Source of the DNA: Leptonemataceae bacterium
GTDB taxonomy: Bacteria > Spirochaetota > Leptospiria > Leptospirales > Leptonemataceae
Length of the DNA: 64,000 nt
Direction of reading: 5' to 3'
NCBI GenBank assembly: GCA_965227295.1
Contig: OZ245742.1
Coordinates: 4,448,001 to 4,512,000 of the forward strand
Numbering within the stretch: the stretch's first letter is position 1; each line of letters starts with the position of its first letter. The notes under the pieces are model-generated. The model had not been told where the DNA came from. It saw only the letters and a program-made list of their open reading frames with translations, and ran no database searches. The translations under genes and the position numbers were made by a program. Shown here in pieces: positions 1-61,172 of this stretch.

Positions 1-655
1 TATCCGACATAAGCAGCGAGACTGGCTGCCCCGAGCTTCTCGCGCGCCGGAATTCTTCTTCCAGACGGGCCTTGAAGTAATCTTTAATATAGAGACCGGT
101 GGTACCGTCGACGGTGGCCATGGTATGCAGGCGCGCGTTCTCGATGGCGATCGCCGCCTGGTTCGCCATGGTCTGAAATATTTGCAGGTCGTCCTCGTTG
201 AAGCGGCGGCCGTCGTTTTTGTTCAGGACCTGGACCGTGCCCAGGCTGCGACGTTTTGCCAGGAGCGGCACGCACATCATCGTTTTAGTAACGAACCCGC
301 TCTCGGAGTCGGCGCGGCTCGAAAAACGCGGATCGGACGCGGCGTCGGTCACGAGGACCGGCTCGCCCTGCTTCGCCACCCACCCGGCAATGCCCTCGCC
401 CAGCTTCAGACGGATGTTGCGGATGGCCTCGCTCTTCTCGCCTTTGATGACGTGGAAGTAAAGTTCCTCGGCTTCTTCGTCGACCAGCATGAGACTGGAA
501 GCCTCGGCGTCGCAGAGTTCCTTCGCCTTTTCCATGAGCGAGTCGAGCACGACGTTAAGGTCGAGGCTCGACGACAGCAGCGCGTTGATTTCGAGAACCT
601 TGTACAGGCGCTCGTTTTCGTGACGCAGGCGCTCAATGTCGGTCGAATCCGGCAT
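1..655 (-). CDS. GAF-domain diguanylate cyclase (GAF-GGDEF), 3' end outside window
   Basis: Hand translation (absent from ORF track): MPDSTDIERLRHENERLYKVLEINALLSSSLDL...GEGIAGWVAKQGEP...MCVPL...QAAIAIENARLHTMATVDGTTGLYIKDYFKARLEEEFRRA...SLLMSD. This is a GAF domain followed by the typical start of a GGDEF domain; the GGDEF motif itself lies beyond the window edge. Confidence 0.85.
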   Translation of the reverse strand, partial: MPDSTDIERLRHENERLYKVLEINALLSSSLDLNVVLDSLMEKAKELCDAEASSLMLVDEEAEELYFHVIKGEKSEAIRNIRLKLGEGIAGWVAKQGEPVLVTDAASDPRFSSRADSESGFVTKTMMCVPLLAKRRSLGTVQVLNKNDGRRFNEDDLQIFQTMANQAAIAIENARLHTMATVDGTTGLYIKDYFKARLEEEFRRARSSGQPVSLLMSD

Positions 656-817
656 GGCTTCAGGTATCCGCACCCGGCGCTCGGGGGCAACTGCTTTTCC
701 GAACCATACTCCTGACGCAAACGGAAGAACCTGCACGCCCTGCACCGTAAGCAAAAAAATCGGATAAAACGGAAAACTCCTTTAAATTCCCGCTCCACAA
801 CTCCGTAATTTAAGAAT

Positions 818-1288
818 ATGGGCACGTTTGATAAAATGGATAATTTCACGGCGGACAGCCTGCAGAGCTTTCTGGGCCAGCCGCCAAAGCAGGGCATCCT
901 CGACCGCAATCCCGAGCCGCCGTTTTCCAGCCGCCTCGACTTTGAGGCTTCCAGCAAGCAGAACCCCGACGGACAGATTCCGCGCGCCCGCACCCAGCGC
1001 GCCGAGCGTATCTCCGAGGTCCTCCGCCAGGCCGGCACCCGTCCCGGTCGCCCCGACGCGCAGCCGGACGTCCATGCCCGCGCCGTTCCGCCGACGCCGC
1101 CCGTGCCCGAAGAAATTCCCGAATCAGCCCATCCCCGCGCCCACGACATGATCATCCGCAAGCATTTGTCGGAACTCGTACAACTGCTGATCAGCGAAGG
1201 CCGCTTCGACGATCTGGCACACATTCTGAAGGATCACCGCCGCTTCATCGACGAAATGCTGGCGCTGATTGAAAGAAACAGGCAGTAG
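818..1288 (+). CDS. hypothetical protein (Pro-rich middle, helical C-terminus)
   Basis: 156-aa ORF filling the gap between a divergent and a convergent gene, with an AT-rich upstream region. No recognisable motif. Confidence 0.65.
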   Translation: MGTFDKMDNFTADSLQSFLGQPPKQGILDRNPEPPFSSRLDFEASSKQNPDGQIPRARTQRAERISEVLRQAGTRPGRPDAQPDVHARAVPPTPPVPEEIPESAHPRAHDMIIRKHLSELVQLLISEGRFDDLAHILKDHRRFIDEMLALIERNRQ

Positions 1289-1298: not shown

Positions 1299-3959
1299 CT
1301 ACAAACTCCGCTTTTCGATTTCGCGGTCTTTGAGTTCGAGAATCCTTTTCATGGCCGGGGTGACGGCCAGGCGGGCGAGGTTATCACGGAGTTCTTTCGC
1401 CTTCGTCAGGGATTCCGTGCTACCGGACTCCTCGTACTCCAGGAGATTCGTGGAGATTTGCCGGTCCAGGATGTTGATGCGCGCGAAGTCCTTGCGATAG
1501 TGCTGCCGGGCGATTTCCCAGATGTACTCTTTGGGCTCGACGCGAGCGCGACGTCCGTCGGGTAACTCCAGCTCATCGCCCGGGAAGACCCGATCCGGAT
1601 CACGCTTGCTGGCCGCCGTGCGCGTACCGAGTCGTGCAAAACCGTTGCGCCGCGCGAGAATGTTCGCATACGTGAGGACTTCTTCGTCCGCGGCCTCGAT
1701 GTCGTCCTCGCCGGGAACTCGTTGTTCTTCCTGAAAGTTACCCGGCCCGGCCAGTTCCACGGCCCGACGCTCGGCCGCGCTGTCTCCGCGAAGCGACAGC
1801 TCGTTCGTGAAGTCCGAGCTGGCCGATGACGTGGAGATCCAGAGCACGCCGACAACCAGGAGAACCGCAACGACACCGGCGACCGCCAGGGCCGCGGTCC
1901 GGCCGATGCCGGAGTCCGCCAGACGATCCATGATGCCGCCCCCGCCGCGATTGGCCGCCACGACGCGACCGGGATTGTCCCCCGGTAAAAACGACGGCCG
2001 CCCGGCCTTCGCCTTACGAAAGCCTTCGCCGCCGGATTTCGGTCGCGGTTCCCAGCTGCGGCGTTTGGACCAGTGATTGCCGGCGCTACTGCGATCTTCT
2101 TCTTCTTCGCGAGTGTTTACGATACCTATATCGTTGAGGAAACCCTGGAAACGTTTGCGATCTTCCAGGATACGCAGGCGCTCTTCGTAGATGCGCTCCA
2201 GAAATTCGATGCAGTTCCGGAAGCCGGGCGGATCCCCGGCCTTGTCGATGCCCTTTTCCCAGGTGCGGAGTTGCTTCGCGTACGCTTTGGGGTTCGCTTC
2301 CAGATCGGCGTAGGACGGCGGCATGCGAAGTTCCACCGGTTCGTGGTGGGCCTGGCCGACGAATTGCAGCGTCGTCCGCGGGGTAAACAGAATGTGAAAC
2401 TGAGCGTCCTGGGTCCTGAGTGCCAGCCATTCGCTGTAGCGAATGCTGCGCGGATGATAGCGCTTCTGCAGTTTTTCCAGCAGGCTGCGGTGATGTTCGG
2501 TGTATGCCTGGCGATAGACCGGCAGGTGCCGCACGTATTCAAAGAGCCGGCTGAGATTGTAGAGTTCGCGGATGTTTTCTTTCGGCAACGGACGTTCGAT
2601 AAAATCGTTCAGGGCGCGGCTTAAATTCCCTTCCGTAAGATCTAAGCCGAGGTGTAACATTAGAAAATCCCGCACGGTATCGGCCAGGGGCGTCTCCGCG
2701 AAGATGTTCATGACCGTCTCGGCCAGGGCCGCCGGTTCTTCGGCTTCGTGGAAGCGATACTCCGAACTGCGGACCAGGGGCGTGGCCCGCTCGCTCAGAC
2801 GAGCGTTTTGAAAACGTTTGTCGTCGAGATCGCCCTGCATCTGCAGGCAAAGTCGTCCCTGGGCGCCTTCCAGGTCCTGCTTCGAATGGACCACCTGAAA
2901 CTCCAGGTCGTGGGGCGGACGCAGAAAGTCGAAGCTGCGGTTCTGTTTGCCGCCGCCCAGGGGAAACAGGATCTGCACCATGCGATCGGCCTGGGGACCC
3001 ATGCGATACGTAAACACGCCGTGGGAGCCGGTCTTCGATACAAAGTAGCTGATCTGTTTTGCCAGGGGCAATGCGCTGCCGTCGCCGAACGTAAAGAGCT
3101 TTGCGGCGTTGTAGATTTTTTTGAGAACAGGAACGCGCTCTTCATACGCCGCGGCGATGTAGATGCCGGCGTTGCGTTTCTGATGGTTCATGCGACGCAG
3201 GAACTCGCCCAGCCCCGCGGAGAACGGCGTGTACGATACGGCCATCTCCACGCGTTCGTGATCGACTTCCTGTTCGAACAGCGCGTAGTGCGGGTCGATG
3301 CACGGATTCAGAAAAAGGCCGCGGCCGTCGAAGTTCCAGTAGATGCACGGACGGGTCGGCGTCGGCGAGTACTCCGGGCCGAAGTAGATGAAACCTTTGC
3401 CGTCCTCGCACTTCTTGTGCCGACGGCGCATGGCCCGGGCCATGAGATCGTACTCTTTGTCGATGTCGATGCGGCCGCGCATAGCCGCCTGATGATCGTA
3501 AACCTTCGAAGTGCCGACGTTTACGACGGCATTGCCGGTTTCAAAGAACGTCGTAGTGACGCGGTTCTTTTCGTGGGCCAGGCGTACGGGTTTGTACGGC
3601 ACCGCTTCCACCGGACGGTTGCCCTCCTCCAGTTCCCGCATGCCCGTGAAAGCGTAGATCTGCTGAACGCGATCCTTGCTGCCGACGTAGCGAATGCTTT
3701 CCTCGCCCTCGTCGATCGTCGCCTGGAGCCAGGCCGTTTCGAGGCCGATGTTGATGGGATCGTTTTCTACAAGCAGAACGTTTTCGATATGCCGGAGCAC
3801 GCCGCCGGGAACGGACTTGCCCGCACCGACGCGCATGAACGGCCGCATGTCCTCACTGTGGAGGCCGGTGTAGATCACGCTCGTATCGCGGTCGATCTGA
3901 AAAACGCGGTCACTGCCGCGCAGTTCTGCGATTACCTGTTGCTTTTTATTCGCCGCCAT
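1299..3959 (-). CDS. 886-aa bitopic membrane protein; large N-terminal region, C-terminal LysM-like (apparently permuted) domain
   Basis: Single TM segment ALAVAGVVAVLLVVGVLWI near aa 693-711. C-terminal ANILARRNG...DPDRVFPGDELELP followed by RVEPKEYIWEIARQHY resembles the two LysM halves in swapped order. Confidence 0.8.
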   Translation of the reverse strand: MAANKKQQVIAELRGSDRVFQIDRDTSVIYTGLHSEDMRPFMRVGAGKSVPGGVLRHIENVLLVENDPINIGLETAWLQATIDEGEESIRYVGSKDRVQQIYAFTGMRELEEGNRPVEAVPYKPVRLAHEKNRVTTTFFETGNAVVNVGTSKVYDHQAAMRGRIDIDKEYDLMARAMRRRHKKCEDGKGFIYFGPEYSPTPTRPCIYWNFDGRGLFLNPCIDPHYALFEQEVDHERVEMAVSYTPFSAGLGEFLRRMNHQKRNAGIYIAAAYEERVPVLKKIYNAAKLFTFGDGSALPLAKQISYFVSKTGSHGVFTYRMGPQADRMVQILFPLGGGKQNRSFDFLRPPHDLEFQVVHSKQDLEGAQGRLCLQMQGDLDDKRFQNARLSERATPLVRSSEYRFHEAEEPAALAETVMNIFAETPLADTVRDFLMLHLGLDLTEGNLSRALNDFIERPLPKENIRELYNLSRLFEYVRHLPVYRQAYTEHHRSLLEKLQKRYHPRSIRYSEWLALRTQDAQFHILFTPRTTLQFVGQAHHEPVELRMPPSYADLEANPKAYAKQLRTWEKGIDKAGDPPGFRNCIEFLERIYEERLRILEDRKRFQGFLNDIGIVNTREEEEDRSSAGNHWSKRRSWEPRPKSGGEGFRKAKAGRPSFLPGDNPGRVVAANRGGGGIMDRLADSGIGRTAALAVAGVVAVLLVVGVLWISTSSASSDFTNELSLRGDSAAERRAVELAGPGNFQEEQRVPGEDDIEAADEEVLTYANILARRNGFARLGTRTAASKRDPDRVFPGDELELPDGRRARVEPKEYIWEIARQHYRKDFARINILDRQISTNLLEYEESGSTESLTKAKELRDNLARLAVTPAMKRILELKDREIEKRSL

Positions 3960-5208
3960 CGTTGTACTCGAAGATGTAATTGCCTAACCGGAACGAATCA
4001 CCGCGGGAAATGAGCCCGTCTTCTTTTTGTTTGATGTACTTGAAGTGGGCCTCGTCCCTGCCCGCGGGCTTCAGAATCGACTCACCCTTCACTTTCTTCG
4101 CCTTGAGGTCCACGTTCTTCGGGAGTCCCATCTGACGAATTTTCAAATCCGCACCCAGCTTGCTGCCGATGGACATCTTGCTCTTGTCCAGCTTGTCCAA
4201 ATCGAAGGAAGACTTCACCGGCTGGCCGACGTCGGCTTCATAGTAAGTGAAAGCGCCGGCCACCTTGTGACGATTCATAAACCAGCGGATGAGTATGATC
4301 AGGACACCGAGGATGAACAAGACCAACAGGACGTTCCGAATGATCGGAGCCCAGGCCCCGTAGCGCGTCTTCCACTGGACCTCGTCGACATCCTCGCTGA
4401 CCTCGGTGAGGCCGATTTCGTCGGCGGCCGCGGCTGACTCGTCTTGCGCTTCGCCGTCGTCGGCCGTGGCAGCGGCAGCGGAATCGTCCGCGGTCTCAGC
4501 TTCAGTCGCGGCAGCGTCGCCGCTCTCTGAATCGCTGGCCGGGGCCGCTTGTTTCGGTTCCGCCGATTTCTTTTTGGCCGGCTCCACGGTCTTCACTTCC
4601 GGCGAGAGTTCCTCGAGTTTCGCTTCGAGGGCCGGGTCCTTGAGTTTACCCAGGCTCACGTAGTAGATGTATGCGTTTTGCACCGGTCGGTCCCGGGTTT
4701 CGGACGGGTCTTTCAGGTCTTCGATGTTAAGTTTTTGGTCCTTTAACTCAGCCGGCGGATCGTCGCGACCGTCGGACATGATTACCACAAAGACGTTGCG
4801 GTCCTGGCTTTCCAGGCGCTCCACTTCTTCGCGGACGGACCCGACCATGCCTTTCATGAACGTATGCCGGCCCTTCGCGGCCAGGGTCTCCACGGCGCTT
4901 ACGACCCGGGCTCGATCCTCGTCGCCGTTGATTTTGTAGGAGCCGACCCGGTAGGTCTCCGTATCGAAGTTCATGAGCGTGATGGTGTCGCCGTCGTCCA
5001 CGGAACGCAGGAAGGCATCCATGCTCTGCTTGACCTTGTCGATTTTGCTCGCGTCGCCTCCCGGTCGATAGGCCATGGAACCGGAGGTATCGATCACGAG
5101 AACATAATCTTTACCGCCGCCGAAAAGGCCGCAGCCCGTCGCGAACGAGAGCGCCAGGGCGGCGCTCAGCAGGAGTCGCGAAAAATTCTTAAGTGCAATG
5201 ATTCTCAT
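3946..5208 (-). CDS. VWA-domain lipoprotein with a C-terminal TM helix and FHA-like tail
   Basis: Lipobox-like FATGC after a hydrophobic leader; MIDAS VLVIDTSGSM and IMSDGRD; acidic/Ala linker; TM VLLVLFILGVLIILIRWF; tail ending ISRGDSFRLGNYIFEY. Start re-picked at MRIIALK. Confidence 0.85.
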   Translation of the reverse strand: MRIIALKNFSRLLLSAALALSFATGCGLFGGGKDYVLVIDTSGSMAYRPGGDASKIDKVKQSMDAFLRSVDDGDTITLMNFDTETYRVGSYKINGDEDRARVVSAVETLAAKGRHTFMKGMVGSVREEVERLESQDRNVFVVIMSDGRDDPPAELKDQKLNIEDLKDPSETRDRPVQNAYIYYVSLGKLKDPALEAKLEELSPEVKTVEPAKKKSAEPKQAAPASDSESGDAAATEAETADDSAAAATADDGEAQDESAAAADEIGLTEVSEDVDEVQWKTRYGAWAPIIRNVLLVLFILGVLIILIRWFMNRHKVAGAFTYYEADVGQPVKSSFDLDKLDKSKMSIGSKLGADLKIRQMGLPKNVDLKAKKVKGESILKPAGRDEAHFKYIKQKEDGLISRGDSFRLGNYIFEYNDGGE

Positions 5209-5313
5209 AGGAATGCTCGGTACCGTTTTCGAATTCAGGCCAAACTCACGAGACCACAAAAGAACGATGCGACGTAATGCAGCGAAGGAGACCAGGGCCG
5301 ACGACCGACCTGG

Positions 5314-6033
5314 TCAATACTCGTTGTATTCCTTGTTGTTCTTAATGTAGTCGCGTAAGTTTAAATTCAAAGCGCCGTCGCGGTCAAGATATTCCATGAG
5401 TAAAATGTAGAACCACATCATGGTATCCGGGCCGGTTTCCACGACCTTATACCCGCCGGCGATTTCCCAGTCCTTGATGATCAGGCCCTGGCCGAGAACG
5501 CAAATCAAGTCCGTCTCCATGTTGACCGGGATTTCTTTTTCCTGAGAGATTTCGATCAGGTTCTGCTTGTGAAAGAGGAGCGAATGCTCCGAATCGTAGG
5601 CGAAGAGCAGCGAGTACATCGGAACGACATCCAGTTCGCTGACTTCGCGCTCACCGGAGTGCAGGACCTTAAGCGCCCGGGTGAGGCTCGCGTGGGTGGC
5701 CAGGTTCGCCGCGGTCAGTCCGGCTTCGATCGTAATGAACGCGTTCAACGCGTCCGCGAGGACATAACCGCCTGTAAGGTCCAGGAACTTCGCGCACCAC
5801 TTGCGATAGATCAACACGTCGCAGTCGCGATTCAGCAGGTGCTTTTTGTTTCGCACCTTGCCCGTGGCCAGCGAGATTTCCGGCGGCAGGTGATCCTTCA
5901 GGAAGGTATAGAACTCCTGAAAAAGGTTCAGGTCTTTCTTTTTCTCGGGGAGTTTGACTCCCCGTTTCCCCAGCTTTTTAGCCAGGGCCTTTTCCAGGTC
6001 GGTGCTTTGGTTGGCGAAGTACTCCGAGAACAT
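5314..6033 (-). CDS. DUF6602-like protein (PD-(D/E)XK-like fold, probably inactive)
   Basis: FLKDHLP..SLATGKV...RDCDVLIY...LLFAYDS...DLICVLGQG is the pattern I associate with DUF6602 proteins. Confidence 0.6.
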   Translation of the reverse strand: MFSEYFANQSTDLEKALAKKLGKRGVKLPEKKKDLNLFQEFYTFLKDHLPPEISLATGKVRNKKHLLNRDCDVLIYRKWCAKFLDLTGGYVLADALNAFITIEAGLTAANLATHASLTRALKVLHSGEREVSELDVVPMYSLLFAYDSEHSLLFHKQNLIEISQEKEIPVNMETDLICVLGQGLIIKDWEIAGGYKVVETGPDTMMWFYILLMEYLDRDGALNLNLRDYIKNNKEYNEY

Positions 6034-6068
6034 TCTATTTTATGATCGGCGACTTTTCCCCTCGAACG

Positions 6069-7049
6069 TCAGAAAAGATTCAGGACTTTGTTTACGTCGT
6101 GCTTCAGAAAGCTCTCGAAGCGCGAGGAAGCGCCCTCGTGCAGGTATTTCTGTAGCTTGCTGACGCCCTTGATCTCCACGCCGGCCACCTGGAAGAAGAT
6201 GAGACCGCCGTGTTTCACCTTACCCCACTTAAACAGGGTGTTCAGGTCCTGAATGAGTTCGCCCTCGTGGTAGACGATGACCTGTGAAGTATTGTAGCGG
6301 GTCTCGTAGGACTCAATGATGTTCTTCCAGGCCTCCACGTTGCCGTTGTGGAAGAGTTCGTTGGTCACCTGCACCGAGTACTTCGGCGTCATGCGCTTCT
6401 TGCCGGCCGGCGCGGCCTGCTGGGCCGGACGCGCCGCGGGCTGCGGAGCGGCGGGCTTCGGGGCCGGCGCGGGAGCCGACTGCTGGCGCGGCGGCGGAGG
6501 GGGCGGCGGAGGCGGAGCCGCACGTTCGAACTCCGGATCGCTTTCCGGCGTCTTGCCGTCGAGCATGGCGAAGAAAGCCTCAAGGGCCTTTTCGGCCGTT
6601 TCCCGTTTGTTGTTCTTCGCCCGGGCATAGACGATCATGAGTTCGTTGACCTTCACGCCGTGCAGCGAGTCCCAGTGTTCCTGCTTCGCGGGATTTACCA
6701 GGTTCACGCCGGTGGTCGGGTGATAGTAAACCACGACCAGGTCGATACCGTTCCACTTCTTAAATTGCTCGGCGATCTTGCCGAGCGCCGCGTCGTCGAC
6801 GCTGGCCTTCAGGTTGGTGGAACGATACGGAAGATCGAGTTTGTTGATGAGGATGACGCTGAGGATCGGCGGGATCTGTTCGCGCTGGATGACGTTGTTC
6901 TCCAGCAGGTCGTTCAGCAGATCGGCGAGGTTTCCGCCTTTGCTTGCGGCTTCCACCAGGTTTGTAACGTTCACAATGTGACGCAACGTCTGGTTGAACG
7001 CCTCGCGGGTTCCGAGATTCGAAAGTTCTTTTCCGGTGCTGACTGCCAT
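6069..7049 (-). CDS. spirochaete-type hypothetical protein, two domains joined by a poly-Pro linker
   Basis: 326 aa; RBS GAGGAG upstream; C-terminal block TPKYSVQVTNELFHNGNVEAWKNIIESY...LFKWGKVKHG; directly downstream of cfpA. Confidence 0.85.
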   Translation of the reverse strand: MAVSTGKELSNLGTREAFNQTLRHIVNVTNLVEAASKGGNLADLLNDLLENNVIQREQIPPILSVILINKLDLPYRSTNLKASVDDAALGKIAEQFKKWNGIDLVVVYYHPTTGVNLVNPAKQEHWDSLHGVKVNELMIVYARAKNNKRETAEKALEAFFAMLDGKTPESDPEFERAAPPPPPPPPPRQQSAPAPAPKPAAPQPAARPAQQAAPAGKKRMTPKYSVQVTNELFHNGNVEAWKNIIESYETRYNTSQVIVYHEGELIQDLNTLFKWGKVKHGGLIFFQVAGVEIKGVSKLQKYLHEGASSRFESFLKHDVNKVLNLF

Positions 7050-7115
7050 GACTCCTCGCTTGCTCCCGGGGCCCGGGGCTGACCTATTCAGCCCCGGAGC
7101 ACGGGGAACTCAACG

Positions 7116-7153
7116 AAAAAACAAAAAACCCGCGATCCGAAGACCGCGGGTTT
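7116..7153 (-). terminator. intrinsic terminator after cfpA
   Basis: Minus strand AAACCCGCGGTC-TTCG-GATCGCGGGTTT followed by TTTGTTTTTT; C(UUCG)G tetraloop plus U-tract. Confidence 0.85.
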
Positions 7154-7187
7154 GCGGGGCCGTCGCCGGCCCCTTCGAAAACTCTTC

Positions 7188-9260
7188 TCAGAGTTCTTTC
7201 AAGCCCATCTCTTTGAGTTTGTCCTCGTAAGATTTGGGCGTTACATCGGCCGAGCCTGCGACTCCGCCGGCTCCCGCCGGGGCGTCGCCGCCTCCTCCGC
7301 CACCGGACGGGGGTGCGGGCGGCGGTGGCGGAGGTGCTCCACCACCGTCGTCGTCCGGTCCCTGGTTTTGGTTCGCGGAATCGGCCGTGCTATACGCCAG
7401 AGACGCTGCGGTCTCTTTCATCTCGTCGCTGCCGAAGTTCTGATCGATATCCGCACGCATCGTAGAACGACGGCGCTTGAACGAAGCGAAGGCCGCGTCC
7501 GCGAAGCCCTGAGAGACGCCGTGGAGGAATTCGTTCAGAACGTTCGCCATGGCTTTCATCATGTATTGCTTGCGCTTGGTCGTGGTGAGGTCCACGTCCA
7601 GGAGCAGGCCGGGCTGCAGTTGATGCGGGTTGATTTCGTAGATGAAGGAGTTGAACTCTTTTTCGAGGAGATTCAACCGCTCATCGAGAACGACGCGTTC
7701 TACCGGGTTCTGGTAGCCGAACATTTCCTGGAGCATGCTCTGGAGGTAGTTCAGTTTATCGCCGACGTTCTTGATTTCGACCTGATACGTGCGATTGTTC
7801 TTCTCGACGAAGGTGCTCGCCGGATCGCGGAACTGGAGTTCGTTCCAGTGCAGTTCGTCCGGATCCTGATTGATGGCCTTGCGATCCTTCACCCACTGGC
7901 GCGGCATGAGCTTTTCGGTTAGGTCCTCGAAGTCGCCCATCTTCTTGCTGAGGCCGAGCCACTTGGACTTCCGCTTTTCGTACAGCGTATGCACGACGTC
8001 CCAGACAGCGTCCACTTCCCGGAGGAATGCGGCGATGCGGTTGTCGTAGATGCGCTTGAGTTCGCGGATCTGGTTTTGATCGAAGTAAACCAGGCGGATG
8101 GCGTAGCGCTCGTCCGGAAGCTGCGTCTCGTCCAGATCTTCGTACTCACGGATGATACACTCGCGGGCGTTCTTGTTGTTATCGCAAAACTGATAACCGA
8201 GGCGCGAGGTATCAAGGATCGAGGTCAGCGTGTTCACGGCGGTGTTGAAGCCGCGGTTCCGAATGTTCTCGTTGTCGATGATCTTCTTGATCTGCTCCCG
8301 CATGTTCAGCGGGTCGTAGTCTTCTTGATCGATCTCTGCGCGCAGGCCGTCGATTTTATCGAGGAACTTCTTGCCGAGGATGGTGTAACGACGGGAGTTC
8401 GGGTCCGAGACGTTGTCGTCGGTGAACTTCTCGACGAGCTTGATCTTCTCGAACATGATCTCGGAGTCGCTGAGCTCGGCACGACCGGAGTCCACCATCT
8501 CTTCTTTGAGCTTTTCGATCTCGCGATCGATGAGTTCGGAAATGTGCTGGGAGAGCTGCTCTTTCAGCAGGTGCTCCACGGTTACCTGATAGTGGAAGAT
8601 CCGGGAAATGAGCTCGGAGTCCAGGATGTTGATGGAGAGTTTGATGTCCGAAACGGTCTTCGGTTTGAAGGCGTTGTCCTTGAACGCGCACTTTACGATG
8701 GAGTAAGCATTCTCACCGCGAACGAAGGCGCCGATGTCCGTTTTTTGACGGAGGATGGCGTTCGTTTCGTTCTCCAGGTCGTTCATACCCCGCTGGATAT
8801 GGCCCTGAAGGTGACCGTACATGTTCACGACGGACTTCTCTAATTCACCCGTGTTGAACTTGTCGGAGCCGCCGATTTTATCCAGCAGTTCGACGATTTC
8901 TTTCGGAGTGTACCGGGCGAGGCTTTTGACTTCTTCTTTGTCGACGAAGTCGCGGACCTTTTTGACCATCTCATCTTCCACCGTTATCGCGTAACGGTTG
9001 AACATGTTCACGTATGCCTGGTTGACGTAGTTGTAGAGCTTGTCTTCGATGCTCGCCATTACGTCGACGTCTTTGACGACTTCCGGCGGCAACTTCGTCT
9101 GCGTGTACTCGGAAATGTAGCGCGCGGTCTCGTCGATGATGCGCTTCGCTTCCGCGGGTTTGTCTCGACCCTCCCACACCAATGAGGTACGCGATGCGAC
9201 CGCACTGGGAAGAACAGGATCGATTTTATTCGGGCTTTTCGGGAATTGCCCCACTGCCAT
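7188..9260 (-). CDS. cfpA: cytoplasmic filament protein A
   Basis: Motifs match Treponema CfpA as I recall it: PKSPN, DKFNTGELEKS, VNMYGHLQGHIQRG, GAFVRGENAY, ENIRNRGFNTA, LQPGLLLD, MANVLNEFLHG..GFADAAFASF. RBS GGAGG. Confidence 0.95.
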   Translation of the reverse strand: MAVGQFPKSPNKIDPVLPSAVASRTSLVWEGRDKPAEAKRIIDETARYISEYTQTKLPPEVVKDVDVMASIEDKLYNYVNQAYVNMFNRYAITVEDEMVKKVRDFVDKEEVKSLARYTPKEIVELLDKIGGSDKFNTGELEKSVVNMYGHLQGHIQRGMNDLENETNAILRQKTDIGAFVRGENAYSIVKCAFKDNAFKPKTVSDIKLSINILDSELISRIFHYQVTVEHLLKEQLSQHISELIDREIEKLKEEMVDSGRAELSDSEIMFEKIKLVEKFTDDNVSDPNSRRYTILGKKFLDKIDGLRAEIDQEDYDPLNMREQIKKIIDNENIRNRGFNTAVNTLTSILDTSRLGYQFCDNNKNARECIIREYEDLDETQLPDERYAIRLVYFDQNQIRELKRIYDNRIAAFLREVDAVWDVVHTLYEKRKSKWLGLSKKMGDFEDLTEKLMPRQWVKDRKAINQDPDELHWNELQFRDPASTFVEKNNRTYQVEIKNVGDKLNYLQSMLQEMFGYQNPVERVVLDERLNLLEKEFNSFIYEINPHQLQPGLLLDVDLTTTKRKQYMMKAMANVLNEFLHGVSQGFADAAFASFKRRRSTMRADIDQNFGSDEMKETAASLAYSTADSANQNQGPDDDGGGAPPPPPPAPPSGGGGGGDAPAGAGGVAGSADVTPKSYEDKLKEMGLKEL

Positions 9261-31621: not shown

Positions 31622-33046
31622 TTACAGCGGAAAACGCTCTCCCGATTCCGGAATGTACACCTGCGCCGCGAGCCCGCGTTCGGCGTAGGCCTCGCGCAGG
31701 GCGTGCATGGCATCCGACTCGCCGTGGACCAGGAAGATCCGCTTCAGTGCATGGCGGCCGGCCAGGCCCGCGGCGAATTCCAGAAGATCGTTTCGATCGG
31801 CGTGAGCACTGAAGCCCTCGAGCGAACGCACCCGGGCATTGACCATGATCTGCTCACCGAAGATGCGGACCTTGCGCTCCCCGTCCCGCAACCGGCGCCC
31901 CAGGGTATACGGGGCCTGGAAACCCACGAGCAGGACCGAGTTCCGCACGTCCCCCAGGCCGTGAAAAAGATGATGGCGGATGCGACCGTTTTCACACATG
32001 CCCGAACCGGCAATGATCACGGCGGATTCCTCCAGCTCCATGATCTCCTTCGACTCACGTGCCGTATGTACTTTCGAAAGACGTTCTGTAAAAAACGGCA
32101 TCTCGCGCTTCGCGATCATGGCGGAAAGTTCGGTATCAAAACATTCCGGATGCAGGCGAAAGACCTCGGTCACGGCAATGGCCAACGGCGAATCCAGGTA
32201 GACCGGCAGGATCGGAATGCGCTTCTCCCGTTCCAGAACGTGCAGCGACAGTAAGATCTCCTGAGCGCGTTCTAACGAAAACGACGGAATGAACAGCTTG
32301 CCGCCGCCGTCCACCACCCGGCGAATCTCTTCGGCCAGGTGACTGTCCATGGCGGAGCGCGCCTCGTGCAGACGATCGCCGTAGGTGGACTCGGTGATGA
32401 GAAAGTCCACGCCGTCGACGAACTCCGGATCGTGTAAGATGGGCATGTCCCGACGGCCCAGGTCCCCGGTGAACAAAAGACGTTTGGTGGAACCGTCGCT
32501 CTGTTTTTCCTCGATGATTACCGTGGCCGAGCCCAGAATGTGACCGGCGTCGAAGAACGTAAAGGTGACGTCGGCATTCAGCGGAAAGCGCCGGCGATAC
32601 GGCACACTCACGAAATGGTCCAGACTGCGCACGGCATCCGCCACGGTATAGAGCGGCGCGTGTTCCTCGGGGGGCGGCCGACCTTCTTCTCGAGCCGCCT
32701 TCGCCGCGCGTTTATTCAGAAACTTCGCGTCCTGTTCCTGGATGTAGGCCGAGTCACGCAGCATTACACTGGCGAGATCCCTGGTGGCGGGGGTGGCGTA
32801 GACGTTGCCGGCAAAACCGGACTTGATCAAATTCGGAATATTGCCCGAGTGGTCGATGTGAGCGTGGCTTAAGATCAGACAATCCGCAGTTACGGCGAAG
32901 TCCGGCAGATCGCTATTGCGCCGGAAAGACTCCGCCCGTTTGCCCTGAAACAATCCGCAGTCCAGCAGGATCGTGAGGCCGCCCGCGCGTACGCAGTGCA
33001 ACGATCCGGTCACGGTTCCCGTGGCCCCGTAAAATTCCAGTTCCAT
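31622..33046 (-). CDS. MBL-fold beta-CASP ribonuclease
   Basis: LSHAHIDHSG, AGHILGS, FTGDLG, ESTYGDRLH, FSAHAD, LVHGE. Start re-picked at MELEFYG. Confidence 0.93.
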   Translation of the reverse strand: MELEFYGATGTVTGSLHCVRAGGLTILLDCGLFQGKRAESFRRNSDLPDFAVTADCLILSHAHIDHSGNIPNLIKSGFAGNVYATPATRDLASVMLRDSAYIQEQDAKFLNKRAAKAAREEGRPPPEEHAPLYTVADAVRSLDHFVSVPYRRRFPLNADVTFTFFDAGHILGSATVIIEEKQSDGSTKRLLFTGDLGRRDMPILHDPEFVDGVDFLITESTYGDRLHEARSAMDSHLAEEIRRVVDGGGKLFIPSFSLERAQEILLSLHVLEREKRIPILPVYLDSPLAIAVTEVFRLHPECFDTELSAMIAKREMPFFTERLSKVHTARESKEIMELEESAVIIAGSGMCENGRIRHHLFHGLGDVRNSVLLVGFQAPYTLGRRLRDGERKVRIFGEQIMVNARVRSLEGFSAHADRNDLLEFAAGLAGRHALKRIFLVHGESDAMHALREAYAERGLAAQVYIPESGERFPL

Positions 33047-33056
33047 CAAATCATCC

Positions 33057-33818
33057 TCACAAAAAAACACTCATCGCCAGTCCCAGGCCGAGCGCAATCA
33101 GCAGCACGAAGACCAGCCGGCGAAAGCGATCCGCCGGAATACGATCGTGCAGGAAACTCCCGAACCACAGGCCGAGAACCACCGCCGGCGAACACAGCGC
33201 TGCATAGCCGAGGACCACCGGCGTCCATAGTCCGCTCAGGGCGTGACCGATCAAGATCATTAAGCCCGTCGGCAGAAAGTACCCCTGCAGCGTCGCGCGA
33301 AACACCGACGGCGTCCAGTTGCGCAGGACACCGAACACAACGATGGGCGGGCCGCTGGTATTGTAGGCGCCGCCCAGGACTCCGGAGAGCCATCCGAACA
33401 GGTACGCGAAACGCTCGGATTGTACGACCGGCGCCTGGTTCGTTGCGGGCGTACGGAAACGCAGCAGTTGAAAGACGGCAAAGAAAATCAAAAACAACGC
33501 GAGGCCCAGTTTGACCGGGCCGGAGTCCACGTACGTCAGCACGAAGAGGCCCACGGGAATGCCGCAGGCCGAAGCCAGGATCAACCGGCCGGCGTCGGCA
33601 AAGTGCACCTCACGATAGCCGCGCAGAAAGATGTAAACCGAAACCAATACGCCCAGGATCGCAAAGAACGGCACGGCCACGCTGAGCTCCGTCAACAGGG
33701 CCAGCAGCGGCATAGCAATGACGGCGTCACCGAATCCGAAGACGGCGCGGATCGTCATGGCGAAGAAAACCACGCCGAAAATCGCCAGGGCGACGGCGTC
33801 CAGGTCCGGCCCCGGCAT
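33057..33818 (-). CDS. TauE/SafE (TSUP) family exporter
   Basis: GFGDAVIAMP, SGVLGGAYNTSGPP, multi-TM. ATG overlaps the upstream stop (TAATG). Confidence 0.88.
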   Translation of the reverse strand: MPGPDLDAVALAIFGVVFFAMTIRAVFGFGDAVIAMPLLALLTELSVAVPFFAILGVLVSVYIFLRGYREVHFADAGRLILASACGIPVGLFVLTYVDSGPVKLGLALFLIFFAVFQLLRFRTPATNQAPVVQSERFAYLFGWLSGVLGGAYNTSGPPIVVFGVLRNWTPSVFRATLQGYFLPTGLMILIGHALSGLWTPVVLGYAALCSPAVVLGLWFGSFLHDRIPADRFRRLVFVLLIALGLGLAMSVFL

Positions 33819-58438: not shown

Positions 58439-59467
58439 TCATTCTTCAATCCGAAAGTAGAACTCGCCCAGACCCTGGCCGATTTCGTTCAGACGCAATT
58501 GCATCACGTCCAGGTACTCGTGGAGGCCCTGGTGAAAGATGTCTTCGACCTCGGTGTAATCCAACTGCGAACGCAGCCGGCCCAGGAGTTTCTCGGACCG
58601 GTTCGTGAATGAACTCATCTCCGAACCGGTGATTTCCCGGAGCGAGGTCTCGGCAAGTTTCAGGCAAAAACGAATTGCACGCGGGAAATATCGGTCGAGC
58701 ACAAGAAAACGAATGATGCTGCGCGGATCCACGCGATCAAATTCGCGATTGTACATTTCGTAAGCGCTGGCGGACTTCAGGACCGAGGACCACTGCAACA
58801 GATCAAACGAGCGGCCGACGTCTTCTACACGCGGTAGTAAGATGAAATACTTCACGTCCAACAGGCGCGTCGTCTGGTCCGCGCGTTCCAGTTGACGCCC
58901 CAGCATGCCGAAGTGCCAGCCTTCGCTGTGAGAGAGCGTGGTATCGTACAGCCCGTGATACAGTTGCGTCTGCTGGCGGATCAGCGTGCACAGCGGCAAC
59001 GGATCGCGCAGAACGTCGCCCATGTCGCGGCGGATCGCATCGCGGACCTGCATGTGAAAATCGTTCAGGTGCTCCCAGATTTCGAGGCTGATCATTTCAC
59101 GGATCGAGCGCGCGTTTTCCCGCGCACGACTCAAACACGAACCGATGGACGACAGATTCCGTTCGTCCGCCAGGAGAAAGCGAATCACGTCGTCCCGGGC
59201 TGCCGGTGCCGACGCGGTGGATGCAGTGGGCGCGGAAACGCCGTCGGCGGCCCCGCTCGCAGTTTCACCGCCCGCGGCCTCGCCGTACAATTTATGAAAG
59301 AGATCGTTATCTCCGGTCGTGGAGATCAGCGGGCCCCACTGCTCCTGCATACCCGGAGGAAGATCCAGCGTTAAGTTGAGATTGGCGTCGATGAAGCGCG
59401 CATAGTTATCCGCCCGCTCAATGTAGCGGTTCATCCAATAGATTGAATCTGCGACCCGGCTCAGCAT
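58439..59467 (-). CDS. alpha-E domain protein
   Basis: MLSRVADSIYWMNRYIERA, ARENARSIRE, GRQLERADQTTRLLDVK, FPRAI. Confidence 0.95.
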   Translation of the reverse strand: MLSRVADSIYWMNRYIERADNYARFIDANLNLTLDLPPGMQEQWGPLISTTGDNDLFHKLYGEAAGGETASGAADGVSAPTASTASAPAARDDVIRFLLADERNLSSIGSCLSRARENARSIREMISLEIWEHLNDFHMQVRDAIRRDMGDVLRDPLPLCTLIRQQTQLYHGLYDTTLSHSEGWHFGMLGRQLERADQTTRLLDVKYFILLPRVEDVGRSFDLLQWSSVLKSASAYEMYNREFDRVDPRSIIRFLVLDRYFPRAIRFCLKLAETSLREITGSEMSSFTNRSEKLLGRLRSQLDYTEVEDIFHQGLHEYLDVMQLRLNEIGQGLGEFYFRIEE

Positions 59468-60913: not shown

Positions 60914-60952
60914 GAAAAGGTGCGCTCCTGTGCCTGTCCGGCGCAAACGAGT

Positions 60953-60968
60953 AGCAATATTCATACCA
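60953..60968 (-). promoter_or_regulatory. sigma54 (-24/-12) promoter
   Basis: Minus strand TGGTATGAATATTGCT with exact GG-N10-GC spacing, ~40 bp upstream of the ATP-grasp start. Confidence 0.7.
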
Positions 60969-61064
60969 TGGCAAAACACTCTCTCGCGAAGGGTTTTCGC
61001 GCGTAAGGCCTGTACACTCGCCTCAAAAAAAGGCAGATCAGGCAGGATTTAGACATCGCCGAAT

Positions 61065-61082
61065 TTGTAGGAGTTCCTACAA
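61065..61082. promoter_or_regulatory. palindrome TTGTAGGA-GT-TCCTACAA (candidate enhancer/operator or Leptospira-type short repeat)
   Basis: Perfect 8-bp arms between two divergent sigma54 promoters. Confidence 0.6.
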
Positions 61083-61135
61083 TGGGCCGGATCGAGGCGG
61101 TGCGCGGTTTTGCCCGGGTTTTTCCACCGGAGTTC

Positions 61136-61151
61136 TGGCACGTTCCTTGCT
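61136..61151 (+). promoter_or_regulatory. sigma54 (-24/-12) promoter
   Basis: TGGCACGTTCCTTGCT matches the TGGCAC-N5-TTGC consensus, 21 bp upstream of the ATG. Confidence 0.85.
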
Positions 61152-61172
61152 CCACCCTTACGTTAACAACAT

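What the first reader, a model, noticed from the sequence alone, without database searches (positions are those of the whole stretch)
1299..9260. cfpA gene cluster may encode a trans-envelope anchoring system for the spirochaete cytoplasmic filament
Seen: cfpA is followed on the same strand by four genes. These are a 326-aa poly-Pro-linked protein, a DUF6602-like protein, a VWA lipoprotein with a second TM anchor, and an 886-aa bitopic protein with a ~690-aa N-terminal region and a LysM-like C-terminus. The last two overlap by 14 bp. Known: CfpA forms filament ribbons under the inner membrane in Treponema; bridging and anchor densities were seen by tomography but, to my knowledge, are not assigned to genes. 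Inference: this cluster could link filament, inner membrane, peptidoglycan and a lipid anchor. The terminator after cfpA would give a high filament-to-accessory ratio.
Basis: partly seen in the sequence, partly recalled or inferred. Interest (0 to 1): 0.75.

Follow-up and report, generated by a model that had tools for sequence, protein, structure and literature searches.

The report
Conserved gene set around spirochaete cfpA
The gene for the spirochaete cytoplasmic filament protein CfpA sits in a gene cluster, conserved across the phylum, that encodes uncharacterised cytoplasmic and membrane proteins; these are good but unproven candidates for the parts that tie the filament ribbon to the membrane and cell wall.

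Summary
On the minus strand, cfpA (7188-9260; NCBIfam cfpA, 876 bits) is followed by a strong terminator and four genes of 326, 239, 437 and 886 aa. The last two overlap by 14 bp.

- **Synteny:** in 80 CfpA loci from other Spirochaetota, the 326-aa gene follows cfpA in 66 of 71 loci with enough sequence. In 41 of 42 loci with long flanks, at least one of the other three genes lies beside cfpA. The gene orders are rotations of one circular order and match the clades of the CfpA tree.
- **326-aa protein:** two alpha/beta domains joined by a proline-rich linker.
- **239-aa protein:** a NucC-like (DUF6602) nuclease fold that lacks the catalytic lysine.
- **437-aa protein:** signal or lipobox, a periplasmic VWA domain with an invariant MIDAS motif, a TM helix, and a cytoplasmic domain that may be FHA-like.
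- **886-aa protein:** a conserved N-terminal domain, a metallo-beta-lactamase fold without HxHxDH, a TM helix, and a periplasmic LysM-like domain.

The topology fits a link from filament to membrane to wall, but no binding is shown. Three results argue for caution:

- Ten close homologues of the 886-aa protein lack the TM helix and LysM-like part.
- No lineage outside the window's clade keeps all four genes.
- A pyruvate-phosphate-dikinase-like gene is conserved in the neighbourhood just as well.

It remains a testable lead.

The parts
7188..9260 (-). cfpA, cytoplasmic filament protein, 690 aa
   Evidence: NCBIfam NF040882 at 876 bits, cut-off 500. 2744 relatives at E <= 1e-10.
7191..7265 (-). 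CfpA C-terminal tail (residues about 666-690, ...GVAGSADVTPKSYEDKLKEMGLKEL) after a low-complexity Pro/Gly linker
   Evidence: The tail motif (V/I)KG(S/K)xD(V/L)(T/S)P ... (G/D)L(K/Q)E(L/M) is kept at the end of the CfpA ORFs in all four gene orders, while the linker varies. A role as a partner-binding peptide is inference.
7116..7153 (-). Intrinsic terminator-like hairpin plus T-run between cfpA and the 326-aa gene
   Evidence: A comparable site is found in 42 of 49 related intergenic regions, against 0 of 147 control segments.
6069..7049 (-). 326-aa cytoplasmic protein (p326): helical N-terminus and alpha/beta domain (residues 1-172), Pro-rich linker (173-215), nearly invariant C-terminal alpha/beta domain (216-326)
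   Evidence: AF2 mean pLDDT 87.5. The gene lies directly after cfpA in 66 of 71 loci. C-domain mean column identity is 77%. The family has 2686 proteins, with precomputed Pfam PF27497. No TM helix.
5314..6033 (-). 239-aa cytoplasmic NucC-like / DUF6602 protein (p239), probably not a working nuclease
   Evidence: The family profile matches solved NucC: 7zgv at E 6e-11, 6uxf at 2.8e-9, 6p7o at 5.8e-5. PADLOC PD_DExK at 3.1e-7. DUF6602 matches 27 of 33 members. D72 is invariant, but the lysine of the E-x-K motif is replaced.
3946..5259 (-). 437-aa VWA membrane protein (ORF from TTG at 5259; an ATG at 5208 is the more likely start). Signal or lipobox ending at Cys43 (5131-5133), periplasmic VWA (4735-5103), TM helix (4288-4344), cytoplasmic C-terminal domain (3949-4287)
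   Evidence: VWA_2 at 8.7e-10. MIDAS residues D57, S59, S61, T133 and D163 are kept in 46 of 46 sequences. The cysteine after the hydrophobic stretch is conserved in the window's clade. Hydrophobic helices. The C-domain matches Yop-YscD_cpl (FHA clan) in 6 of 28 members, best E 0.0017.
1299..3959 (-). 886-aa bitopic protein (p886). Conserved N-terminal domain (residues 18-110; 3630-3908), metallo-beta-lactamase-fold core (about 130-405; 2745-3572), helical domain (409-611; 2127-2735), disordered basic linker (1893-2108), TM helix (1812-1892), periplasmic part (1302-1811) with LysM-like motif (about 1500-1682)
   Evidence: AF2 mean pLDDT 85.6. Foldseek finds CPSF-73, RNase Z and PhnP-type MBL folds at E about 1e-4, prob 1.00. 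No HxHxDH motif. LysM profile hits. The family has 782 representatives at E <= 1e-3 and no Pfam family.
3946..3959 (-). 14-bp overlap of the VWA stop and the p886 start
   Evidence: The sequence at the junction is shown.

Best explanation
The four genes after cfpA are a conserved, CfpA-linked accessory set, not chance neighbours. The most likely working model has four parts.

1. CfpA polymerises into the sub-membrane ribbon.
2. The soluble two-domain p326, the near-universal neighbour, binds or organises the filaments.
3. Two inner-membrane proteins each offer a cytoplasmic domain to the ribbon and a periplasmic binding domain to the wall. One is p886: N-terminal domain plus a degenerate MBL-fold scaffold, then a TM helix, then LysM-like. 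The other is the VWA protein: MIDAS VWA, then a TM helix, then a cytoplasmic domain that may be FHA-like. In the window's clade the VWA protein may also be lipid-anchored.
4. The NucC-like p239, always encoded directly before the VWA gene, is its cytoplasmic partner.

The conserved tail at the end of CfpA's disordered linker is a candidate docking peptide.

**Shown:** gene order and its conservation, domain content, fold predictions, motif conservation and motif loss.

**Inferred:** all contacts, the compartments (from hydrophobic helices and flanking charges), wall binding, lipidation, and the effect of the terminator on protein ratios.
For: **Conserved neighbourhood**

- Of 80 CfpA loci, 70 have a p326 ORF. 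Five of the ten without one simply end at cfpA.
- p326 follows cfpA in 66 of 71 loci with at least 1.3 kb downstream.
- In 42 loci with at least 3.5 kb upstream and 6.5 kb downstream, the counts are p326 41, p886 31, p239 28, VWA 28, and at least one of the last three 41.
- Unbiased clustering of all ORFs shows that only these families and a PPDK-like gene are shared by more than 45 loci. The other neighbours (PBP1a, GAF-GGDEF) are shared by about 20.

**Gene orders**

- cfpA-p326-p239-VWA-p886: 18 loci.
- p886-cfpA-p326: 13 loci.
- p239-VWA-cfpA-p326: 9 loci with p326 and 1 without.
- All are rotations of one circular order. Each order belongs to one clade of the CfpA tree.

**Tight coupling**

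- VWA and p886 overlap by 14 bp.
- p239 and VWA abut or overlap in relatives.
- cfpA and p326 are -11 to +9 bp apart in 20 Spirochaetia loci.

**Topology and binding domains**

- TM helices.
- MIDAS motif kept in 46 of 46 sequences.
- LysM-like profile hits at E 1.1e-7.
- Basic residues precede the p886 TM helix and acidic residues follow it (sequence).

**Degenerate enzyme folds, as expected of structural parts**

- The MBL fold has no HxHxDH, and no His or Asp in that region is conserved across the family.
- The NucC-like fold has no E-x-K lysine.

**Constraint.** The p326 C-domain (77% mean column identity) is constrained about as strongly as CfpA (64%).

**Context from papers**

- Filaments lie just under the cytoplasmic membrane, parallel to the flagella (PMC13398306, passage).
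- A 2004 tomography paper is titled as reporting bridging and anchoring components. Only its title was seen, in reference lists.
Against: - No physical link to CfpA was shown by any tool.
- Only about three independent gene arrangements underlie the synteny. Each is fixed in one clade, and local rotations keep neighbours adjacent by construction.
- The PPDK-like gene (TIGR01828 over its full length, 665-718 bits, below the cut-off of 843) is as conserved as the cluster, in 37 of 42 loci. It overlaps p326 by 4 bp in L055 and follows it within about 50 bp in L033. Conserved order in this region therefore need not mean shared function.
- 10 homologues of p886 in the window's clade (L006, L008, L009, L010, L019, L021, L022, L024, L025, L027; 649-675 aa) have no TM helix or LysM-like part.
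- Five loci of one sub-clade (L030, L032, L034, L035, L036) lack p326 after cfpA although the contig continues.
- The strong terminator means that p326 and the later genes may be transcribed separately from cfpA.
- The FHA-like call is weak: 6 of 28 members, best E 0.0017, and PDB 6hc1 only at E 1.4.
- The lipobox was judged by eye, without a predictor.
- Pairwise distances of every accessory family follow the PPDK-like protein about as well as they follow CfpA (r 0.87-0.92 against 0.89-0.90; p886 was not computable).
Confidence: 0.45

Rival explanations
1. The order is inherited and the functions are separate. The VWA, p239 and p886 genes form an envelope or periplasmic module of their own, for example a wall- or lipoprotein-binding complex. 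p326 has some other cytoplasmic role. They stay near cfpA only because this chromosomal region is rarely broken, as with the PPDK-like gene.
For: - The PPDK-like gene is kept in 37 of 42 loci and is packed against p326 in Spirochaetia.
- Each gene order is fixed within one clade.
- A terminator separates cfpA from the rest in 42 of 49 loci with a gap.
- Distances track the PPDK-like protein as well as they track CfpA.
Against: - The other flanking genes (PBP1a, GDSL, GAF-GGDEF, polysaccharide synthesis) are lost outside the closest clade, at 15-21 loci.
- The accessory genes stay next to cfpA through at least two reorderings and down to about 14-16% identity for p886.
- cfpA and p326 abut or overlap in 20 loci.
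Confidence: 0.25
2. The cluster acts on the nucleoid or on cell division. The two nuclease-derived proteins, NucC-like p239 and the MBL/beta-CASP-like core of p886, bind or process nucleic acid. They couple the chromosome to the CfpA ribbon and the envelope.
For: - p239 is a NucC homologue.
- The best structural matches of p886 are nucleic-acid MBL nucleases: CPSF-73, RNase Z and RNase J.
- cfpA mutants of T. denticola show chromosome condensation and filamentation (PMC3398590, passage).
- Some His, Asp and Glu residues are conserved within the window's clade in the p886 core: H224, H313 and D351 in 22-24 of 24 sequences.
Against: - The canonical catalytic motifs are missing. The E-x-K lysine is replaced in p239, and p886 has no HxHxDH.
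- No DNA-binding domain was detected.
- The module is absent from the cfpA neighbourhood in the Spirochaetia clade.
Confidence: 0.12
3. p326 is a phosphocarrier-like regulator. One or both of its alpha/beta domains is HPr-like, and the neighbouring PPDK-like enzyme, which has a phosphohistidine swivel domain, phosphorylates the invariant His234 to control filament assembly.
For: - Foldseek matches about 90 residues of the p326 model to HPr structures (prob 0.89-0.99, target TM 0.5-0.74).
- His234 is invariant and sits just before a helix.
- cfpA, p326 and the PPDK-like gene occur together in most loci.
Against: - The Foldseek E-values are 0.04 or worse.
- The p326 domain profiles find no HPr among solved structures.
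- hhalign of the C-domain profile against E. coli HPr gives probability 0.15. The N-domain gives 0.30.
- This beta-alpha-beta-beta-alpha-beta order is a common fold.
Confidence: 0.05
4. The p239, VWA and p886 genes are an anti-phage defence island that happens to lie beside cfpA.
For: - NucC is a defence effector (this role is recalled, not read here), and p239 matches it.
- DUF6602 occurs in a candidate defence gene (bioRxiv 10.1101/2024.07.02.601686, one passage).
Against: - PADLOC matches only p239, to a generic PD_DExK model and weakly to NucC. The other four proteins match nothing.
- The catalytic lysine is lost.
- No cyclase or CRISPR partner is present in the cluster.
- The genes are inherited vertically with cfpA across clades, unlike mobile defence islands.
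Confidence: 0.03

Closest known systems
Csd5-CcmA of Helicobacter pylori, and RodZ-MreB (both recalled, not checked here)
   Same: A bitopic inner-membrane protein whose cytoplasmic part meets a cytoskeletal polymer and whose periplasmic part meets the wall. p886 has this layout: cytoplasmic domains, one TM helix, periplasmic LysM-like domain.
   Different: No sequence or fold relation was found. The p886 cytoplasmic part is a new N-terminal domain plus a degenerate MBL fold. Its wall-binding module is LysM-like rather than SH3 or the RodZ C-domain. Binding to CfpA is not shown.
FtsZ C-terminal linker and peptide with the tethers FtsA and ZipA (recalled)
   Same: CfpA has a conserved core, then a variable low-complexity linker, then a short conserved C-terminal tail. 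This is the layout that FtsZ uses to dock membrane tethers.
   Different: CfpA is unrelated to FtsZ: its profile finds no solved structure at E < 0.2. No partner for the tail has been identified.
NucC, the cA3-activated endonuclease of CBASS and type III CRISPR systems (PDB 7zgv, 6uxf, 6p7o)
   Same: p239 is of similar length (239 aa against 241-256). Its N-terminal half aligns with NucC and keeps the Asp that aligns with the conserved Asp of NucC's ...QID... motif.
   Different: The lysine of E-x-K is replaced, and the glutamate is lost in one clade. The C-terminal half is not matched. There is no cyclase partner. The gene sits in a vertically inherited cytoskeletal gene cluster.
Metallo-beta-lactamase / beta-CASP nucleases (CPSF-73, RNase Z, RNase J)
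   Same: The fold of p886 residues about 130-405 matches (Foldseek E about 1e-4, prob 1.00).
   Different: No HxHxDH motif, and no His or Asp in that region reaches 70% conservation across the family. No Pfam MBL hit. The core is fused to a TM helix and a LysM-like domain.
T. pallidum TP0750 (VWA protein) and the tp0746-tp0748 region
   Same: TP0748 (CfpA) and TP0746 (PPDK) lie on the same strand two genes apart (PMC3373638, table rows). This matches the cfpA-p326-PPDK order found here. TP0750 is a periplasmic VWA protein encoded two genes from cfpA (PMC7521688, passages). VWA genes also lie beside cfpA in L077, a bin labelled Treponematales, and in L079.
   Different: TP0750 has 224 aa and no TM helix or cytoplasmic domain according to that paper. 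Its sequence could not be fetched, so family membership is untested. It has been studied as a host-interaction factor, not as a cytoskeletal part. That TP0747 is the p326 homologue is inferred from position only.
YscD-type FHA-like cytoplasmic domain of type III secretion inner-membrane rings (Pfam PF16697)
   Same: A small cytoplasmic domain next to a single TM helix. 6 of 28 VWA C-domains match the model.
   Different: The matches are weak (best E 0.0017) and the window's own protein does not match. The domain lies C-terminal to the helix here. The fold was not predicted.

Membership tests
CfpA (NCBIfam NF040882) | Full-length match above the curated cut-off | tested here: met
   876 bits against a cut-off of 500, covering residues 6-611.
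VWA domain with MIDAS | Pfam VWA match and the D-x-S-x-S ... T ... D metal-site residues | tested here: met
   VWA_2 at 39.6 bits (cut-off 27) and VWA at 33.3 bits (cut-off 23.8). D57, S59, S61, T133 and D163 are kept in 46 of 46 family members.
Bacterial lipoprotein | Signal peptide ending in a lipobox with an invariant cysteine | tested here: inconclusive
   The hydrophobic stretch ends in ...FATGC. A cysteine at this place is kept throughout the window's clade but is missing in many members of the sister clade. No lipoprotein predictor was available.
LysM | Sequence match to the LysM beta-alpha-alpha-beta module | tested here: inconclusive
   The single protein has no Pfam hit at E <= 0.01. 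The family profile matches solved LysM domains (E 1.1e-7, 2e-6, 8.7e-5), but in two pieces in swapped order: the C-terminal half first, then the N-terminal half. This suggests a permuted or one-and-a-half LysM. Peptidoglycan binding is not testable here.
DUF6602 / NucC-like PD-(D/E)xK nuclease | Sequence match to the family | tested here: met
   DUF6602 in 27 of 33 members, best E 1.6e-8; the window's protein is below the cut-off. NucC 7zgv at E 6e-11. PADLOC PD_DExK at 3.1e-7. Atlas score 0.94 to DUF6602 clusters.
DUF6602 / NucC-like PD-(D/E)xK nuclease | Catalytic D ... (D/E)-x-K motif | tested here: not met
   D72 is invariant. At the position of NucC's E-V/A-K the window has E-A-G. The lysine is absent in all rows and the glutamate varies in the sister clade.
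Metallo-beta-lactamase superfamily | The alpha-beta/beta-alpha fold | tested here: met
   Foldseek finds 16 PDB matches at E <= 0.001, all listed ones being MBL-fold proteins. Target TM is about 0.5 for the small MBL proteins. The model has pLDDT > 90 in this region.
Metallo-beta-lactamase superfamily | HxHxDH and the further metal-binding His/Asp motifs | tested here: not met
   No HxHxD(H) pattern in the protein, and no His in the region reaches 70% conservation across 43 sequences. No Pfam Lactamase_B hit.
FHA clan (Yop-YscD_cpl) | Profile match, and the FHA beta-sandwich fold | tested here: inconclusive
   6 of 28 C-domains match PF16697, best E 0.0017, but not the window's own. Profile against PDB: 6hc1 at E 1.4 only.
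HPr (PTS phosphocarrier) | Sequence homology to HPr, with the active-site histidine | tested here: not met
   Fold-level resemblance only (Foldseek prob up to 0.99 but E >= 0.04). No HPr among the profile hits. hhalign probability 0.15 and 0.30 against E. coli HPr.
Pyruvate, phosphate dikinase (TIGR01828) - the neighbour gene in related loci, outside the window | Score above the equivalog cut-off | tested here: not met
   Full-length alignment, but 665-718 bits against a cut-off of 843 in 3 of 3 proteins tested, out of 58 in the cluster. It is a divergent member of the PPDK family.

The most novel reading that the evidence does not exclude
Spirochaetes have their own cytoskeleton-to-wall tether system, built from retired enzyme folds. 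The conserved C-terminal tail of CfpA docks, much as the FtsZ tail does, onto p326 and onto the cytoplasmic domains of two inner-membrane proteins. One is a dead-MBL protein with a LysM-like domain; the other is a MIDAS VWA protein with its dead-NucC partner. Together these would be the bridging and anchoring densities seen by tomography in 2004. They would fix the ribbon under the membrane in register with the wall and the periplasmic flagella. In that case T. pallidum TP0747, and possibly TP0750, would be cytoskeletal parts rather than host-interaction factors only.
Probability: 0.25. Interest if true: 0.8.

Novelty: new variant of a known kind. Interest (0 to 1): 0.62.

Why it matters
CfpA ribbons have been known for decades, and their loss disturbs division, chromosome state and infectivity in T. 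denticola (PMC3398590, passages).

In the library I could search, no paper links any gene to the filament's attachment:

- The searches found nothing on TP0747.
- They found nothing on a cfpA gene cluster.
- The key Izard papers were not held.

This analysis turns one window's gene order into a phylum-wide, ranked candidate list: p326 first, then p886 and the VWA/p239 pair. It gives domain boundaries and predicted compartments, so binding, localisation and deletion tests can be designed directly.

It also defines two protein families with no curated description, the p886 family and the p326 family. It shows two cases of enzyme folds that have lost their catalytic motifs.

If the model is wrong, the equally conserved PPDK-like neighbour is a useful warning about reading function from synteny in this phylum.

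Tried and rejected
- **Complex prediction, CfpA (residues 9-690) with p326 (9-326), both as alignments:** no verdict. The score was 0.00 in both runs and the controls were not run. This is evidence neither for nor against binding.
- **HPr homology of p326:** profile searches of PDB sequences found no HPr for the C-domain (best hit E 0.0012, to an unrelated protein) and nothing for the N-domain. hhalign against E. coli HPr gave probabilities 0.15 and 0.30. Only a fold-level likeness remains.
- **Mirror-tree test:** distances of p326, p239 and VWA correlate with CfpA (r 0.89-0.90) about as well as with the PPDK-like protein (0.87-0.92). Partial correlations are 0.14-0.34. p886 failed because its distances are saturated. 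I do not count this as evidence, since all the families are inherited together.
- **Shared domain in the two membrane proteins:** hhalign of the p886 N-domain against the VWA C-domain gave probability 0.12. The p886 N-domain profile finds no solved structure.
- **Atlas search of p886 residues 1-680:** no usable hit.
- **Word-based homologue search for p886:** only 12 proteins were found, because the family is too divergent for this method. The exhaustive search found 782.
- **CfpA profile against PDB sequences:** nothing below E 0.2.
- **Defence-system reading:** PADLOC matched only p239.
- **First tree run:** it timed out and was repeated with FastTree.
- **Literature:** five papers by PMC id were not held. 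A whole-word search for CfpA returned almost only unrelated acronyms.
- **Not possible:** fetching T. pallidum or T. denticola proteins to test whether TP0747 and TP0750 belong to these families, because the single genome scan kept only the best 80 of 536 loci. For the same reason I could not look elsewhere in the genomes for accessory genes missing from the flanks.

Full report
**What is in the window**

All five genes lie on the minus strand.

| Gene | Coordinates | Length |
|---|---|---|
| cfpA | 7188-9260 | 690 aa |
| p326 | 6069-7049 | 326 aa |
| p239 | 5314-6033 | 239 aa |
| VWA protein | 3946-5259 | 437 aa |
| p886 | 1299-3959 | 886 aa |

- The last two ORFs overlap by 14 bp (3946-3959).
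- The first protein is CfpA by the curated NCBIfam model: 876 bits against a cut-off of 500.
- Between cfpA and p326 lies a 12-bp G+C-rich hairpin with a UUCG loop and a T-run, at 7153..7126.
- Upstream of cfpA are a GDSL-like hydrolase and a class A PBP. Downstream of p886 is a GAF-GGDEF protein.
- The window has about 58% G+C.
- It carries the Pfam family DUF1564, which I recall as typical of Leptospira.
- Its CfpA is closest to proteins of uncultured Leptospirales/Leptonemataceae bins, with 87% identity to the best public locus.

**Is the gene order conserved?**

One scan of the species-representative genomes found 536 stretches encoding a CfpA relative. The best 80 were kept, at 87% to 53% identity, each with up to 10 kb of flank on either side. 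I called ORFs in all loci and built iterated profiles for the four downstream proteins.

*p326*

- A p326 ORF is present in 70 of 80 loci.
- Five of the ten without one end at cfpA.
- The other five are one sub-clade (L030, L032, L034, L035, L036). They carry other genes there.
- p326 is present in 66 of 71 loci with at least 1.3 kb downstream.

*The 42 loci with at least 3.5 kb upstream and 6.5 kb downstream*

| Gene family | Loci with it |
|---|---|
| p326 | 41 |
| PPDK-like | 37 |
| p886 | 31 |
| p239 | 28 |
| VWA | 28 |
| At least one of p886, p239, VWA | 41 |

*The gene orders among those 42 loci*

| Order | Loci |
|---|---|
| cfpA-p326-p239-VWA-p886 | 18 |
| p886-cfpA-p326 | 13 |
| p239-VWA-cfpA-p326 | 9, plus 1 without p326 |
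| cfpA-p326 with none of p886, p239 or VWA (L065) | 1 |

- A fourth order was seen in two loci with shorter downstream flanks, L077 and L079 (L077 is labelled Treponematales). A shorter VWA protein with a C-terminal TM helix is encoded divergently upstream of cfpA.
- All orders are rotations of the circular order p886-cfpA-p326-p239-VWA.
- On a CfpA tree each order belongs to one well-supported clade. The number of independent rearrangements is therefore small, about three.
- An all-against-all clustering of every ORF in the loci gives the background. Only cfpA, p326 (68 loci), a PPDK-like gene (58), p239 (46), VWA (46) and p886 (46) are widely shared. The window's other neighbours are shared by 15-21 loci, that is, only by close relatives.

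**Coupling signals**

- In the Spirochaetia clade the estimated distance from the cfpA stop to the p326 start is -11 to +9 bp in 20 loci. The starts were extrapolated from tblastn alignments, so these distances are approximate.
- In the other clades the gap is 42-552 bp.
- A strong hairpin plus T-run is present in 42 of 49 gaps of at least 40 bp. It is present in 0 of 147 same-length control segments taken from inside cfpA.
- p239 and VWA abut or overlap in many loci.

**What the proteins are**

*p326*

- It has no TM helix.
- It folds with high confidence, mean pLDDT 87.5.
- The layout is a helical N-terminus, a beta-alpha-beta-beta-alpha-beta-alpha domain (75-163), a Pro-rich linker, and a second domain of the same order (224-314).
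- The C-domain is nearly invariant: 77% mean column identity, with a block NELFHNGNVE-W.
- Foldseek finds only an HPr-like resemblance, at E >= 0.04. Sequence-profile tests for HPr failed.
- The family has 2686 members at E <= 1e-5 in the word-indexed collection, close to the 2744 found for CfpA (at E <= 1e-10). Both searches were capped at 8000 candidates.
- All names given by sources are 'hypothetical protein'.

*p239*

- It is a NucC homologue. The family profile matches solved NucC structures at E 6e-11, 2.8e-9 and 5.8e-5.
- It matches DUF6602 in 27 of 33 members, and PADLOC PD_DExK.
- In the printed alignments the invariant D72 aligns with the conserved Asp of NucC's ...QID... motif.
- At NucC's E-V/A-K the window has E-A-G. 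The lysine is missing in every row of the alignment, and the glutamate varies in the sister clade.
- I read it as a nuclease fold that no longer cuts. This is inference.

*VWA protein*

- It has an N-terminal hydrophobic stretch ending in ...FATGC. The cysteine is conserved through the window's clade but is often absent in the sister clade.
- All five MIDAS residues of its VWA domain are kept in 46 of 46 sequences.
- It has a TM helix at 306-324, followed by basic residues.
Its pattern (IG...G..L.IRD ... GD.F..GNY.FEY) recalls FHA-type domains.
- Support for that is weak: Yop-YscD_cpl in 6 of 28 members, best E 0.0017, and an FHA-bearing PDB entry only at E 1.4.

*p886*

It folds with mean pLDDT 85.6.

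| Residues | Feature |
|---|---|
| 18-110 | The most conserved part of the family (R18, G32, P40, G45 and E74 invariant). No detectable relative. |
| About 130-405 | Metallo-beta-lactamase fold: CPSF-73, RNase Z and PhnP-type matches at E about 1e-4, prob 1.00. |
| 409-611 | Helical domain. |
| 618-691 | Disordered, basic stretch. |
| 690-716 | TM helix. |
| 717-886 | Acidic linker, LysM-like module and long helices. |

- There is no HxHxDH motif, and no His in the MBL region reaches 70% conservation across the family.
- The LysM likeness is significant at the profile level (E 1.1e-7), but the two halves match in swapped order.
- The family has 782 cluster representatives at E <= 1e-3, mostly 750-950 aa, and no Pfam family.
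- Ten homologues in the window's own clade are 649-675 aa with no TM helix and no LysM-like part. No separate ORF supplies the missing part.

**How it most likely works**

The compartments fit a tether. p326, p239, the N-terminal 690 residues of p886 and the C-domain of the VWA protein would be cytoplasmic. The VWA and LysM-like modules would be periplasmic. Filaments lie directly under the cytoplasmic membrane (PMC13398306, passage).

CfpA itself ends in a variable low-complexity linker and a conserved tail (...VKGSADVTP...GLKEL). The tail is present in all four gene orders and looks like a docking peptide.

My best model is that p326 is a general filament partner. The two membrane proteins would be alternative or additive tethers to the membrane and wall, with p239 as the partner of the VWA protein. 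None of these contacts is shown.

**Why caution is needed**

- The PPDK-like gene is as conserved as the cluster. It is packed against p326 in Spirochaetia.
- In T. pallidum the same cfpA ... PPDK arrangement exists: TP0748 and TP0746 are on the same strand (PMC3373638, table rows).
- Order can therefore persist here without an obvious shared function.
- The synteny rests on few independent events.
- The TM and LysM part of p886 is dispensable in some lineages.
- Lipidation is unverified.

**Comparison with what is known**

- By layout, the nearest analogues are bitopic cytoskeleton-to-wall linkers such as Csd5 and RodZ, and the FtsZ linker-plus-tail arrangement. These are recalled, not tested, and there is no homology.
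- By descent, p239 belongs with NucC/DUF6602 and the p886 core with the MBL fold. Both fail the catalytic-motif test.
- TP0750 of T. pallidum is a 224-aa periplasmic VWA protein encoded near cfpA. It has been studied for host interaction (PMC7521688, passages). Whether it belongs to this VWA family could not be tested.
- TP0749 is a miniprotein studied as an antimicrobial-peptide candidate (PMC9200625, passages).
- No paper in the searchable library mentions TP0747.
- The 2004 tomography paper on 'bridging and anchoring components' was seen only as a title in reference lists. Its text and the other Izard papers were not held.

**Verdict**

I put functional linkage to cfpA at about 0.7, and the specific trans-envelope tether model at about 0.45.

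The finding is a new variant of a known kind of system, a cytoskeleton-to-envelope tether, made of families without curated description. It gives a long-open question concrete, testable candidates.

Noticed in passing
Related loci, e.g. L055:12917-15550, L033:13054-15660, L002:19369-21972 (beyond the left end of the window): A PPDK-like gene of about 867 aa lies in the cfpA neighbourhood in 58 loci. It follows p326 closely in L055 and L033 and lies about 6 kb further downstream in L002. It aligns over the full length of TIGR01828 but scores 665-718 bits, below the cut-off of 843. T. pallidum has the same arrangement, TP0746 and TP0748.
   Followed up: partly
window 7191-7400 (CfpA residues about 612-690): CfpA ends in a variable Pro/Gly/Ser-rich low-complexity linker followed by a conserved tail. 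The window's clade has ...SADVTPKSYEDKLKEMGLKEL. Other clades have a basic stretch before ...GLKEL or ...DELxEL. The layout recalls the FtsZ linker and C-terminal peptide (recalled).
   Followed up: partly
window 2-754 (-), and 21 related loci: A GAF-GGDEF (diguanylate cyclase-like) gene follows p886 on the same strand after about 0.5 kb, in close relatives only. It lies next to a NucC-like protein, whose relatives bind cyclic oligonucleotides (recalled). No link was tested.
   Followed up: no
L006, L008, L009, L010, L019, L021, L022, L024, L025, L027 (p886 homologues); L004, L023, L059: Ten p886 homologues end before the TM helix, at 649-675 aa. In three further loci the gene is split into two ORFs, which could be a frameshift or a true split.
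   Followed up: partly
L030, L032, L034, L035, L036, downstream of cfpA: One sub-clade has no p326 or PPDK-like gene after cfpA. Judging by the first residues of its ORFs, it has instead a membrane protein of about 408 aa and a 171-aa protein that looks like a cyclic-nucleotide-binding protein. This was read by eye only.
   Followed up: no
L077:8893-9894 (-), L079:2767-3621 (-): In L077 (labelled Treponematales) and L079, a shorter VWA protein (333 and 284 aa; DRSLSM MIDAS start; C-terminal TM helix; no cytoplasmic domain) is encoded divergently just upstream of cfpA. It may correspond to the TP0750 region of T. pallidum. This is untested.
   Followed up: partly
window 58442-64000: A run of genes: circularly permuted ATP-grasp (59471-60979, -), Alpha-E (58442-59467, -), and a transglutaminase-like plus DUF2126 protein (61173-64000, +, running off the window end).
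   Followed up: no
window 31625-33070 (-): A canonical beta-CASP metallo-beta-lactamase protein (Beta-Casp at E 1.6e-35, RMMBL at E 3.2e-16) is encoded elsewhere in the window. It is a useful contrast to the motif-less MBL fold of p886.
   Followed up: no
window 406-1224 (-): A 272-aa ORF rich in Arg, Ser and Cys overlaps the GAF-GGDEF gene in another frame and fills the gap to p886. It looks like a chance ORF of G+C-rich DNA and was not scanned further.
   Followed up: no
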